NCBI GenBank assembly: GCA_963807605.1
Contig: CAWECG010000001.1
Span: 480,001-544,000, forward strand
Source of the DNA: Candidatus Bathyarchaeota archaeon
GTDB lineage: Archaea; Thermoproteota; Bathyarchaeia; 40CM-2-53-6; RBG-13-38-9
Direction of reading: 5' to 3'
DNA length: 64,000 bases
Within the stretch, counting starts at the first letter, position 1; every line of letters begins with the position of its first letter. Below are positions 1 to 10,781 of this stretch, piece by piece. Both the position numbers and the translations under genes were made by a program. The notes beneath the pieces were generated by a model that worked only from the letters and a program-made list of their open reading frames with translations, searched no databases and had not been told where the DNA came from.

Positions 1-451
1 TCCAGATTTGAGTATCCAACAGACCAAGACATTGGAAGGTACAAATATCCCAAGCAGGTTGATAGATGGCGACCAAAATACAGCTGGGAGTACGGAGAAA
101 AAAGAAGAATAATCACATCAATAGAGGAGTAGATCTCTTCTAATCAGGACTGTCTCGCATAACCGCGAACTCCTACATCCGCTTTTCCGTAATGCGCGTT
201 TACGATCCTGCGATAAGGCGAGGGTTTAACTGATGTCGCTATGCTCTCCCTGCGAATACTCGCGCACTATCTTTGACACTCGTGGTTTGTATGCGGCTAT
301 GTCTCAGCCTGCTTTTTCTTAAGATCGAGAGCGCTCCGATGAGTCTTCGAGCATGATGATGAATATCAGAGACTAGCTGCGCGGTCATGAGTAGGGAATT
401 TTGAACTCGAGACATATTAATAGTATGCAAACTTAACTTAGGTTTAGTGCG

Positions 452-483
452 GGGAGTGGGATTCGCGCACCAGTTTACCAGTA
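452..483 (+). repeat. 14-bp tRNA-Leu duplication (GGGAGTGGGATTCG, 452-465) plus left terminal repeat CGCACCAGTTTACCAGTA (466-483)
   Basis: Identical to 7175-7206 and 7851-7882; the 14-mer matches tRNA-Leu at 10652-10665. Confidence 0.9.
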
Positions 484-669
484 AAAAAGCCTCCCTTGGT
501 GACAGCCCCGCACCGTTTTCGCTTCTAATCGGGCACAAAATTCGCGCAGGTTCGTACCTTGAACGGTTTGAACTTGATTCGCGAAATGCAACGCACATAT
601 AGAGACACGAGGATTGGCGGTTCATTCTATGTATGGTTAGCGCTCACTCGGAAAGATTATCAGTTCTAG

Positions 670-1167
670 CTAGACCATTATGTCCGTGCTTTCCTTAGAT
701 GTCTCAAAGACTATGCATGTCAAGGTCTTCTCAACCCCATCCATAGTTCTCAAATCATTCATCACAAAATTGCTGAGCTCATCCACATCTTTTCCTTTGA
801 GTTTGATCAGCATGTCCCAATCACCTGTGATTATATGTACTTCTTGGACTTCCGGGTGTTTCGCGACTTCCTTAGCTATTCTCCTATGAGATGTCAGTCC
901 TTCTTTGCTAGCGGGGTATGCGAATGAAGCGAAGACAAAGGCGGTTGCAGACCTATCCAAACTCTTTGGGTCTAGAATGGCCTTGTATCCCTTGATTATT
1001 CCGAGTTCCTCCATCTTCCTAACTCTGGCATACGCCGTGGTTACTGGGCCCCCTGTTTCTTCTGCGATATCTTTTGATGATAGGCGCCCATTTGATTGGA
1101 GTAATCTCAATATTGCCCTTTGTTTATCGTCAAGATGCATGATTGTATATTTTACATATTCTATCAT
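670..1167 (-). CDS. Lrp/AsnC family transcriptional regulator (start possibly 1140)
   Basis: LDDKQRAILRLLQSNGRLS HTH; EVHIITGDWDMLIK RAM domain; divergent from the dehydrogenase operon. Confidence 0.92.
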   Translation of the reverse strand: MIEYVKYTIMHLDDKQRAILRLLQSNGRLSSKDIAEETGGPVTTAYARVRKMEELGIIKGYKAILDPKSLDRSATAFVFASFAYPASKEGLTSHRRIAKEVAKHPEVQEVHIITGDWDMLIKLKGKDVDELSNFVMNDLRTMDGVEKTLTCIVFETSKESTDIMV

Positions 1168-1247
1168 AATATTCTTACGTTTTTTGATTTTTTGTTAATT
1201 TTTTTGAAATATTGTTTAAGAGTCACGTCCAATCATAGAGAGAGAAC

Positions 1248-9137: not shown

Positions 9138-10448
9138 GTGAATGTGATGAAACGCAGAATAGAAACATTGGCAATACACGCTGGACAGGAAGGCCCAGAC
9201 CCAGCAACAAAGGCAAGAGCCGTACCCATATACCAAACAACATCATATGTCTTCAACAATACAGAACATGCCGCCAACCTCTTTGCTTTGAAGGAATTTG
9301 GAAACATCTACACGCGAATGATGAATCCGACGACTGATGTCTTTGAGAAGAGAGTCGCTGCTATCGAGGGAGGAACAGGAGCGTTAGCGGTAGCATCAGG
9401 ACAGGCCGCCCAGGCTCTAGCTCTTTTGGCTATCACGCAGGTTGATGATGAGATTGTTTCTGCAAATAACCTGTACGGAGGAACATATCAGCAATTCCAC
9501 TACACCTTCTCTAAACTGGGAAGGAACGTAAAGTTCGTCGACTCCACCAAACCTAGTGAATTCAAGAAAGCGATCACTACAAAGACAAAGGCAATATATG
9601 CTGAAACGATTGGCAATCCCAAGCTGGATGTACCTGACTTTGAAGCTCTCGCCAACATAGCTCATGATGCAGACATTCCATTTGTAGTCGACAATACTGT
9701 TGGCATAGGACTTGTTAGGCCCATAGAATACGGTGCAGACATACTTACTCTATCTGCAACCAAGTACATTGGTGGACACGGAACCTCAATCGGCGGCATT
9801 ATTGTGGACTCTGGAAAATTCAACTGGAACAACGGCAAATTCCCTGAATTTACCGAACCTGACCCCAGCTACCATGGGCTCAAATACTGGGACGCGTTTG
9901 GAAACCTTCCCGACCTGGGAAATATCGCCTTCATAACCAAGACAAGAGTGCAATTGCTCCGAGATCTAGGTCCCGCCTTGAGTCCGTTCAACGCCTTCCT
10001 ATTCCTTCAAGGCCTAGAAACTCTACCATTAAGAGTAAAGAAACATTCTGAAAACGCTCTCAAAGTAGCTCAATATCTAAAGGAACATCCACTAGTTGCT
10101 TGGGTCAACTATCCCGGCCTGAAAGATCATCCAAGCCATGAACTCGCAACCAAATATCTCAAAGGATACTATGGAGGGCTAGTTGGTTTCGGCATAAAGG
10201 GAGGATTAGAAGCCGGAAAGAAGTTCATCGAGTCAGTGAAACTGTTGTCCCATCTCGTCAACATAGGAGATGTAAAGAGCCTCGTCGTTCACCCCGCATC
10301 AACAACCCATCAACAATTGACAGCAGAAGAACAAAAGGAGACAGGAGTTACAGAAGACTACATCAGACTATCTATAGGCCTAGAGAACATAGATGACATA
10401 ACTGATGATATAGACCAAGCCCTAAAGAAAGCGGCAAAACCGACCTAG
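9138..10448 (+). CDS. metY: O-acetylhomoserine aminocarboxypropyltransferase / sulfhydrylase
   Basis: [36 protein letters not shown]. Confidence 0.95.
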
Positions 10449-10510
10449 AAATCCCCTATGAGATCAGTGAAGTACTGTACTTCTGGGAAGCTGACATACT
10501 TCTTTTTCTG

Positions 10511-10642
10511 TTGTGTGTATATGCCCTAATAGTCATAGGTTTCGGCAACGTCGGTAGATCATTTCTGACCATGATAACAGAGGAGAAGGAGAAAATCGCC
10601 AAGAAATTCAATTCTGAACTGAAAACCGTGGCGCGCTGGTAA
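10511..10642 (+). pseudogene. hom: Homoserine dehydrogenase N-terminal fragment
   Basis: ALIVIGFGNVGRSFLTMITEEKEKIAKKFNSELKTVA, then GCGCGC, the TIR and a stop; follows metY as expected. Confidence 0.75.
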
Positions 10643-10644
10643 AT

Positions 10645-10781
10645 TGGTGCGGGGAGTGGGATTCGAACCCACGAAGGCCTACGCCACAGGGTATCCTAGG
10701 TATATCTTGATACCCCCTAAGCTTGACACATCGCGTCATCCGCGATGCCCTGCCCCTTAGGCCAGACTCGGGTATCCCCGC
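10645..10781 (-). tRNA. tRNA-Leu(UAG) with two introns (~26 nt in the anticodon stem 5' strand; 23 nt at 37/38)
   Basis: Acceptor stem GCGGGGA/TCCCCGC-ACCA, T-arm GTGGG TTCGAAT CCCAC, long variable arm; spliced anticodon arm CAGGG CT TAG GA CCCTG; BHB fold for the 37/38 intron. Confidence 0.9.

What the first reader, a model, noticed from the sequence alone, without database searches (positions are those of the whole stretch)
447..10781. Tandem gene-cassette array at tRNA-Leu: three TIR-bounded, integrase-free segments separated by identical 14-bp target duplications
Seen: the tRNA-Leu 14-mer GGGAGTGGGATTCG occurs at 452, 7175, 7851 and 10652 (the tRNA itself). Between these lie segments 466-7174, 7189-7850 and 7865-10651. 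Each starts with CGCACCAGTTTACCAGTA and ends with its near-inverse GTAAATTGGTGCG. The terminus adjoining the tRNA rebuilds its 3' end (CGCACCA), while the outermost copy (447-465) keeps a CCA-less end that looks like the original flank. No segment encodes a recombinase; the cargo is ordinary metabolic genes. Known: casposases (Cas1 homologues) insert TIR-bounded elements at tRNA 3' ends with ~14-15-bp duplications and can stack in tandem, whereas tyrosine-recombinase overlaps are usually 6-8 bp. Inference: a trans-acting enzyme repeatedly inserts end-tagged chromosomal DNA at the tRNA, building a polarised array of 45-bp palindromic junctions with kilobase gene-carrying 'spacers'. This would be a gene-capture system distinct from classical integrons.
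Basis: partly seen in the sequence, partly recalled or inferred. Interest (0 to 1): 0.92.

Follow-up and report, generated by a model that had tools for sequence, protein, structure and literature searches.

The report
Integrase-less gene islands stacked behind tRNA-Leu
Three blocks of ordinary metabolic genes sit one behind another at a leucine-tRNA gene of an uncultured Bathyarchaeia archaeon; they are bounded by the attachment sites of a Xer-like tyrosine integrase encoded elsewhere in the genome, not by the ends of a Cas1 transposon, so this is an archaeal version of a known kind of integration hot spot.

Summary
The 14-mer occurs four times and the inverted termini six times, far above chance, and the last copy lies in an intron-bearing class II tRNA on the minus strand. 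None of the three segments encodes a recombinase.

The casposase reading is not supported. The direct repeat is the last 21 nt of the tRNA (19 nt at the outermost copy), not a 14-bp duplication. The same genome holds a 5.5-kb element at another tRNA with the same 3' end. It has identical ends and carries a Xer-like tyrosine integrase plus a DNA-binding partner. In 17 of 21 loci of that integrase family across Bathyarchaeia, the gene lies directly behind a tRNA end followed by the same terminal box. Five integrase-bearing islands also carry the box at their far end. The genome's true Cas1-solo casposon has different ends and a target duplication that starts at the C(T/G)CA motif, as in Methanosarcina.

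Comparison with another genus shows that segment 1 is old and that segments 2 and 3 entered later on the tRNA side.

Best reading: non-autonomous islands made, and probably moved in trans, by the integrase. This scan has noted similar tRNA-anchored arrays in other Bathyarchaeia genomes.

The parts
445..483 (.). Outermost junction J1 (attR-like): tRNA-derived core plus the conserved arm. The 28-bp dyad is 445-472 and its central 6 bp are 456-461.
   Evidence: 8/11 arm symmetry. The outer flank 440-451 resembles the outer flanks in G001 and G319.
466..7174 (.). Segment 1, the oldest: Lrp/AsnC regulator (670-1167, -), fused E1 alpha-beta (1248-3215, +), E2 (3292-4494, +), lipoate-protein ligase (4538-5296, +), E3 (5377-6795, +).
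   Evidence: Pfam. The homologous operon lies directly between a decayed junction and the same tRNA in G013.
7160..7206 (.). Junction J2 (attP-like palindrome). The 28-bp dyad is 7168-7195 and its central 6 bp are 7179-7184.
   Evidence: 9/11 arms with a 6-bp spacer; symmetry extends to about 17 bp per side.
7189..7850 (.). Segment 2: glutaredoxin-like gene (7453-7779, +) behind a TATA-like sequence at 7207-7216.
   Evidence: In a wetland metagenome contig the same gene plus its right junction has a different left neighbour.
7838..7882 (.). Junction J3 (attP-like palindrome). The 28-bp dyad is 7844-7871.
7865..10651 (.). Segment 3, next to the tRNA and probably the newest: PALP enzyme (8161-9123, +) and Cys/Met-metabolism PLP enzyme (9138-10448, +).
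   Evidence: Paralogues at 78% identity lie at G000:C3:301705-303282. The segment is almost uncovered in three related metagenome populations (weak evidence).
10638..10672 (.). attL: the tRNA 3' end (core) followed by the proximal arm of segment 3.
   Evidence: Only 4/11 arm symmetry on the tRNA-body side (counted by hand).
10645..10781 (-). Class II tRNA gene, most likely tRNA-Leu, with intron(s) and an encoded CCA.
38001..38021 (.). Isolated partial copy of the same tRNA 3' end, without the conserved arm (a remnant).

Best explanation
The array is a pile of non-autonomous integrative islands made by site-specific recombination of a Xer-like tyrosine integrase family that targets the 3' end of tRNA genes. 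The free form of such an element carries an attP. This consists of a copy of the last 21 nt of the tRNA flanked on both sides by a box (TTTACYRGTA). On one side there is also an inverted copy of the tRNA's last 7 nt, which makes the site a palindrome. Recombination with the tRNA gene inserts the element and rebuilds the tRNA. It leaves an attP-like palindrome between neighbours and a tRNA-end copy at the far side. New units enter at the tRNA side, so the oldest lies farthest away. The three units here have no integrase. The only integrase of this family in the genome sits in a 5.5-kb island at another tRNA with the same 3' end (G000:C3:765446-770915). I infer that it can excise and re-insert the units in trans, because every unit is bracketed by complete sites. 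Shown: the architecture, the link between these ends and the integrase family, and the order of insertion. Inferred: the cleavage positions (probably the edges of the central 6 bp), the role of the partner protein in binding the boxes, and present-day mobility.
For: (1) An element with the same core and arms carries a 324-aa tyrosine recombinase and a 174-aa partner next to the tRNA. (2) Homologues at 45-81% identity occur in 19 of 401 Bathyarchaeia genomes. In 17 of 21 loci the gene pair lies directly behind a tRNA 3' end followed by the same box and a TATA-like sequence, with at least 6 different tRNA ends. (3) Five integrase-bearing islands also have the box or arm at the distal junction: G000 C3, G319, G321, G152 and G314. 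(4) The integrase keeps R, K, HxxR and Y in 17 homologues. Its best family matches are archaeal XerA, XerC and XerD. (5) The junction has a dyad of 11-6-11 geometry with 9/11 matching, the layout of Xer sites (PMC8371274). (6) Native flanks of these tRNAs lack the box. (7) In G013 the segment-1 operon lies directly between a decayed junction and the same tRNA, so segments 2 and 3 were added later on the tRNA side. The same-genus genome G001 has one different unit at the syntenic tRNA. (8) No integrase or partner-gene remnants exist at any of the 11 or more junctions in the genome. J1, J2 and J3 are identical over 37-48 bp. This fits units that move without their own enzyme better than independent decay does.
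Against: At genome level the exact junction motif (24 of 401 genomes) and the integrase (19 of 401) overlap in only 2 genomes. The motif is specific to one tRNA T-loop and the MAGs are incomplete. Even so, G027 (92% complete, 7 junctions) shows no such integrase. None of 37 junction loci from other MAGs had the integrase within 8 kb. The inner 4 nt of each 11-nt arm are symmetric at only 2 of 4 positions, so the Xer-type core is not proven. The asymmetric centre is exactly 14 nt, the same length as the casposon duplication in this genome. No circular form or precise empty site was seen; the metagenome joints were short and ambiguous. One related strain shows a breakpoint inside segment 2 rather than at its end.
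Confidence: 0.62

Rival explanations
1. Fossil pile-up. Each segment was once a complete integrase-bearing island that integrated on its own and later lost its integrase module by deletion. Nothing is mobilised in trans and the junctions are inert scars.
For: Loss of the integrase after integration and tandem integration are known for archaeal elements (PMC8371274). Most junction-bearing MAGs show no integrase of this family. The distal junction of the segment-1 homologue in G013 and G003 has decayed. Segment 1 has been at this tRNA since before two genera split.
Against: There is no trace of the integrase or its partner at any of the 11 or more junctions of this genome. The proximal ends are trimmed to 13-16 bp of the arm in all three units. 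J1 is 100% identical to J2 and J3 although segment 1 is old. The 0.66-kb unit holds a single gene. Neighbours of segment 2 differ in related populations.
Confidence: 0.25
2. A Cas1-solo casposase inserts TIR-ended DNA into the tRNA with a 14-bp target duplication, building a CRISPR-like array of gene-sized inserts.
For: Inverted repeats of 13-18 bp abut an asymmetric 14-nt centre. The genome has an intact Cas1-solo and seven Cas1 fragments. Its casposon makes a 14-bp duplication next to a tRNA-like sequence. Casposases accept varied ends in vitro (PMC6977970). Earlier notes of this scan read other Bathyarchaeia arrays in this way; these are leads only.
Against: The genome's casposon (G000:C3:~796447-805413) and those of relatives have other ends: CGACGACG- or CACACAC-type TIRs. 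Their duplications begin at C(T/G)CA, the last bases of the tRNA-like leader, as in Methanosarcina. The 14-mer here lies upstream of that point. There are no such termini at the Cas1 locus. No Cas1 lies within 8 kb of 37 junction loci. The direct repeat is 21 nt. In the distant integrase island G152 the spacing is 12 nt, not 14, and the 'TIR' is interrupted. The fixed position of the integrase pair beside the terminus in 17 loci has no explanation under this model.
Confidence: 0.05
3. Another enzyme or process acts on the sites: a host Xer-type recombinase (as with IMEX elements at dif), a different integrase family, or homologous recombination between the dispersed 40-50-bp junction copies.
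For: The site has a Xer-like geometry. Junctions occur in genomes without the integrase. Copies of the outer flanks of one locus occur at other loci (C4:442138, C3:452202 and C2:71698), which shows rearrangements between att copies.
Against: No canonical XerA above the family cut-off was found in this genome, and the island integrase is the most Xer-like protein. Physical linkage of the arms to the island integrase is direct.
Confidence: 0.07

Closest known systems
CIMEs (cis-mobilisable elements) and site-specific accretion with integrative elements at tRNA genes in Streptococcus
   Same: Units are flanked by the att sites of an integrase-bearing relative and have no recombination genes of their own. 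They are stacked in tandem at a tRNA gene, with internal attP-like sites between units.
   Different: The host is archaeal and the integrase is Xer-like with a coiled-coil DNA-binding partner. The cargo is housekeeping-type metabolic operons and one single-gene 0.66-kb unit. There are at least 11 junctions but one integrase in the genome. Mobilisation is not shown here.
Tandem integrated elements and 'gene capture' in archaeal chromosomes (She et al. 2001, 2004; review PMC8371274)
   Same: A tyrosine integrase targets tRNA 3' ends, the tRNA is regenerated, integration is tandem, integrases are lost, and foreign genes become fixed in the chromosome.
   Different: The integrase is not of the SSV type that splits its own gene. 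The att site is a near-perfect palindrome built from the tRNA end and an inverted mimic.
Family 2 casposons at tRNA-Leu of Methanosarcina mazei (PMC4779613, PMC6977970)
   Same: The target is a tRNA-Leu 3' region, elements stack in tandem, and the centre between inverted repeats is 14 nt long.
   Different: No Cas1 is linked to these ends. The casposon duplication starts at CGCA and extends downstream of the tRNA, whereas this 14-mer lies upstream of CGCA. The repeat here is 21 nt, and the genome's real casposon has other TIRs.
Xer/dif recombination and IMEX elements stacked at dif (for example CTX/TLC arrays; own knowledge; dif architecture from PMC8371274)
   Same: The site has 11-6-11 dyad geometry, the recombinase is of the Xer class, and recombinase-less elements sit in tandem at one site.
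   Different: The site is a tRNA end, not the chromosome dimer-resolution site. The recombinase is element-borne and patchy (19 of 401 genomes). The inner-arm symmetry is weak.
Integrons
   Same: An array of promoter-near, recombinase-less gene cassettes is served by one tyrosine recombinase, and new units enter at one end.
   Different: There is no intI/attI/Pc platform at the array and no attC hairpin sites. The units are up to 6.7 kb with their own regulators. The sites are tRNA-derived.

Membership tests
Casposons (family 2) | A Cas1 casposase in the element, or in an autonomous element with the same ends | tested here: not met
   No Cas1 lies in the segments. The Cas1-solo locus has no such termini. 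No Cas1 lies within 8 kb of 37 junction loci. The Cas1 elements have other TIRs.
Casposons (family 2) | A 14-15-bp target duplication that starts at the CGCA end of the tRNA and runs downstream | tested here: not met
   The rule comes from PMC6977970 and holds for this genome's casposon and for G038. Here the 14-mer lies upstream of CGCA and the repeat is 21 nt.
Casposons (family 2) | Terminal inverted repeats abutting the duplication | tested here: inconclusive
   Inverted repeats of 13-18 bp are present in this window. In most other MAGs only 7 bp, which is the tRNA's own end, are inverted. In G152 the repeat is interrupted.
tRNA-targeting tyrosine-integrase integrative elements | Direct repeats that are the 3' part of the tRNA, with an intact tRNA regenerated | tested here: met
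   The repeats are 21-27 nt and the tRNA is complete with CCA.
tRNA-targeting tyrosine-integrase integrative elements | An integrase gene next to the att site in autonomous members with the same arms | tested here: met
   G000:C3 island; 17 of 21 homologue loci; distal arms in 5 islands. This is not met by the three window segments themselves.
tRNA-targeting tyrosine-integrase integrative elements | The catalytic residues R, K, HxxR, H/W and Y | tested here: met
   R, K, HxxR and Y are conserved in 17 homologues. The second His is replaced by Asp (LRGD) throughout the family.
CIME-like non-autonomous elements | Flanked by att sites of an integrase-bearing relative and lacking recombination genes | tested here: met
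CIME-like non-autonomous elements | Excision or transfer with the help of the relative's integrase | not testable with these tools
   There are only hints: identical junctions, different neighbours in related populations, and different cargo in the same genus.
Xer/dif-type core site | Two 11-nt inverted arms around a 6-nt central region | tested here: inconclusive
   9/11 matches at J2 and J3 and 8/11 at J1; the chance rate is 1.5e-4 per position. The inner 4 nt match at only 2 of 4 positions, and the same axis fits a 14-nt centre.
Integrons | An intI-attI-Pc platform and attC sites | tested here: not met
   No recombinase lies at the array. The junctions are tRNA-derived duplex palindromes. 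The integron-integrase model scores far below its cut-off.

The most novel reading that the evidence does not exclude
One Xer-like integrase with its DNA-binding partner runs a genome-wide, integron-like exchange of recombinase-less gene units. These units range from single genes to whole metabolic operons and are often promoter-led. They are shuffled among several tRNA genes that share a 3' end. The shuffling uses palindromic sites built from the tRNA end, so ordinary metabolic genes are traded between related Bathyarchaeia as ready-made cassettes.
Probability: 0.3. Interest if true: 0.65.

Novelty: new variant of a known kind. Interest (0 to 1): 0.42.

Why it matters
Bathyarchaeia are abundant, uncultured sediment and soil archaea, and their gene flow is poorly understood. 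Whole metabolic modules sit here in att-bounded units at tRNA genes: a 2-oxoacid dehydrogenase complex and a second cysteine/methionine-synthesis pair. An intact integrase elsewhere in the genome could move them. That would give a concrete, testable route for metabolic gene exchange in this group. The case also sets a practical boundary for this scan. Look-alike arrays with a 14-nt centre are not all casposase products, and this genome carries both systems side by side, so their signatures can be told apart.

Tried and rejected
(1) ARAGORN in default mode and Rfam found no tRNA; the gene has introns. Brute-force intron removal did not settle the anticodon.

(2) Neither Cas1 nor the integrase was found within 8 kb of the junction loci fetched from public genomes.

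(3) A search for segment 2 as a unit in 40 relatives found only 72-73% gene homologues, and these were not flanked by junctions.

(4) Metagenome contigs gave three results. Segment 3 is almost uncovered in three runs. Joints such as 7882 to 10648 and 7213 to 7833 have only 25-33 nt on one side. Loose ends at junction edges may come from the other arrays of the same genome. I treat all of this as hints only. No circular junction was seen.

(5) Distal ends of seven further integrase islands were not found within about 19 kb.

(6) Foldseek of the partner-protein model gave only weak matches (E at least 0.06), all to winged-helix domains.

(7) Genome-level co-occurrence of the junction motif and the integrase was no better than chance: 2 shared genomes against about 1 expected.

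(8) I considered reading the first 14 nt of the terminus as a casposon-type target. I rejected this because the segment ends would then share no inverted repeats (worked out).
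Full report
**Observation.**
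- The 14-mer GGGAGTGGGATTCG lies at 452, 7175, 7851 and 10652, with a one-mismatch copy at 38008. That is 5 matches against 0.02 expected.
- The terminus CGCACCARTTTAC lies on the plus strand at 466, 7189 and 7865, and on the minus strand at 7174, 7850 and 10651. That is 6 matches against 0.07 expected.
- The last 14-mer is part of a 137-nt tRNA gene on the minus strand (10781..10645). ARAGORN in default mode and Rfam miss it because it holds introns. ARAGORN with introns finds it.
- A 14-nt variable arm and discriminator A make it a class II tRNA, most likely Leu. The anticodon UAG is compatible but I could not establish it.
- Read in the tRNA's sense, the repeated unit is the last 21 nt of the tRNA including CCA. 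It extends to 27 nt at the three inner copies and is 19 nt at 447-465.
- J2 and J3 are identical over 48 bp, and J1 is identical to both over 37 bp.
- Cargo: segment 1 holds an Lrp/AsnC regulator and a complete 2-oxoacid dehydrogenase set (fused E1, E2, lipoate ligase, E3). Segment 2 holds a glutaredoxin-like gene. Segment 3 holds a PALP enzyme and a Cys/Met-metabolism PLP enzyme.
- No recombinase is present in any segment.

**Organism and spread.**
- The window is G000:C1:480001-544000 of a 2.65-Mb, 5-contig genome of an uncultured Bathyarchaeia archaeon.
- The same junction occurs at 11 or more further places on four contigs, forming other arrays. Four tRNA genes share the 3' end.
- The junction motif is found in 13 of 41 relatives and 24 of 401 Bathyarchaeia genomes. 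The reversed control finds none. Many public Bathyarchaeia MAGs also carry it.

**An autonomous element with these ends.**
- G000:C3:765446-770915 lies between a junction and another tRNA with the same 3' end, and it has the same arms on both sides.
- Next to the tRNA it encodes a 174-aa protein and a 324-aa tyrosine recombinase, followed by IS debris.
- The recombinase's best matches are archaeal XerA, XerC and XerD, all below the equivalog cut-offs. It keeps R, K, HxxR and Y, with Asp in place of the second His, as do 16 homologues.
- Homologues of 45-81% identity occur in 19 of 401 genomes.
- In 17 of 21 loci the gene pair sits directly behind a tRNA 3' end, followed by wTTTACyrGTAa and a TATA-like sequence. 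The tRNA ends differ (GCACCA, GGCGCCA, GCACTA; several T-arms).
- The native trailers of these tRNAs lack the box, so the box belongs to the element.
- Five integrase islands also show the box or arm at the distal junction. In G319 (16.3 kb, defence genes) that junction is identical to the window's junctions.
- The partner protein always accompanies the integrase. Its model (pLDDT 77) shows a long coiled coil and a C-terminal winged helix, with only weak fold matches. The N-terminus looks like a ribbon-helix-helix by its sequence pattern, which is inference. I infer that it binds the boxes.

**Why not a casposase.**
- The genome has an intact Cas1-solo and seven fragments. That gene sits in its own roughly 9-kb element (G000:C3:~796447-805413).
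- This element has perfect 14-bp duplications (CTCACCAGCTAAAG), CGACGACG-type inverted ends, and a tRNA-like leader in front. Relatives show CACACAC-type ends and duplications such as CGCACCAAGGTACC.
- These obey the Methanosarcina rule, in which the duplication starts at the last 4 bp of the tRNA (CGCA) and runs downstream (PMC6977970).
- The window's 14-mer lies upstream of CGCA, and the repeat is 21 nt.
- The Cas1 locus has no such termini, and no Cas1 lies within 8 kb of 37 junction loci.
- In the distant island G152 the spacing between the inverted pentamers is 12 nt, against 18 nt between the corresponding pentamers in the window, and the box is displaced by 7 nt. That fits att arms and not transposon ends.

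**What the '14' may be.**
- I followed a lead from another first-reader note on this genome. The junction reads TGGTGCGGGGA-GTGGGA-TTCGCGCACCA, which is 11-6-11 with 9/11 inverted matches. The chance rate is 1.5e-4 per position.
- This is the layout of Xer sites, which are cleaved at the spacer edges (PMC8371274). The 14-mer would then be 4+6+4.
- The 7 non-tRNA bases are an exact inverse of the tRNA's last 7.
- Caveat: the inner 4 nt are symmetric at only 2 of 4 positions, and the dyad axis is the same as in the 14-nt reading. The cleavage points are therefore inferred.

**Order of events.**
- The segment-1 operon has homologues of 70-76% identity in G001, G013 and G003.
- In G013 it lies directly between a decayed junction and the same tRNA-Leu. 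Segment 1 was therefore at this tRNA before the genera split, and segments 2 and 3 entered later on the tRNA side.
- The same-genus genome G001 has the syntenic tRNA and right flank but one different 3.35-kb unit, a 750-aa zinc-ribbon protein.
- Segment 3 duplicates genes that also exist at G000:C3:301705-303282 (78% identity), so it is an extra, related copy.

**Activity.**
- In favour of units that move without their own enzyme: there are no integrase or partner remnants anywhere else in the genome.
- The junctions are identical even though segment 1 is old.
- Metagenome contigs show segment 2 with unlike DNA on both sides.
- A 919-nt contig shows the glutaredoxin gene and its right junction following a gene that in G000 lies on another contig.
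- Against: no circle or clean empty site was seen.
- The breakpoint in that contig is at 7332, not at the att end.
- Junction-bearing genomes mostly lack the integrase.
- I therefore give 0.62 to integrase-made, trans-mobilisable units, 0.25 to inert remnants, 0.05 to the casposase model and 0.07 to other agents.

**Comparison and novelty.**
- The closest known are CIMEs and accretion at tRNA genes, archaeal tandem integration and gene capture, and IMEX stacks at dif.
- This is a variant of a known kind in a little-studied archaeal class. Its features are a Xer-like integrase, a palindromic tRNA-derived site, metabolic cargo and many junctions per integrase.
- This scan has already noted similar tRNA-anchored, integrase-less arrays in other Bathyarchaeia genomes. 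Some were read as CIME-like and others as mini-casposons.
- For this repeat family the integrase reading is the one the evidence supports.

Noticed in passing
G000:C3:~796447-805413 (outside the window; L012 covers 800000-812000): A polymerase-less casposon holds the intact 402-aa Cas1-solo. It is flanked by perfect 14-bp direct repeats and CGACGACG-type inverted ends, with a tRNA-like leader and a second mini-insert beside it. Seven Cas1 fragments lie elsewhere in the genome.
   Followed up: partly
window 12037-61941: GCGCGCGC occurs 24 times against 0.3 expected, but never in 1-12036, where the cassettes lie. It also sits at the breakpoint between the CBS-domain gene and the glutaredoxin region in the metagenome contig L136, and after the CBS gene at G000:C4:15251.
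   Followed up: no
G000:C1:475472-475505 (4.5 kb upstream of the window; L010:5472-5505): A further junction is built from the 3' end of a different tRNA type (T-arm CCCC). It separates a P-type ATPase/ThiC block from an AglB (STT3) and metallo-beta-lactamase-fold block that ends at J1. The array or its remnants may therefore continue leftwards.
   Followed up: partly
window 38001-38021; G000:C4:442138-442156: Isolated partial copies of the tRNA 3' end break off at the same base (GGGATT|TG) and lack the conserved arm. The C4 copy carries the outer flank of the C3 integrase island, which shows rearrangement between att copies.
   Followed up: no
L136 (Logan contig of SRR29366192, 919 nt): In a wetland population the glutaredoxin gene and its right junction (95.6% identity to window 7332-7873) follow the end of a CBS-domain gene. 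In G000 that gene lies at C4:14889-15249.
   Followed up: partly
G000:C3:354582-354690 and C3:452167-452202: A tRNA with the same 3' end and a junction 97.5 kb away carry the same downstream flank. Two other tyrosine recombinases (392 kb, 422 kb) and a Cas1 fragment (435 kb) lie between them. This may be a large composite island or a rearrangement.
   Followed up: no
whole genome G000: No match to the archaeal XerA model reaches its cut-off. The island integrase is the most Xer-like protein found (158 bits against a cut-off of 220).
   Followed up: partly
L115 (G319:C19, 16.4 kb): The integrase island of this relative carries defence genes: a type IIG restriction-modification enzyme, a BglII-like endonuclease and an ApeA HEPN protein.
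   Followed up: partly
window 10645-10781: The tRNA has about 48 nt of intron sequence around the anticodon loop, probably as two introns. ARAGORN labels it Pro(AGG) with one intron, which does not fit its long variable arm.
   Followed up: partly
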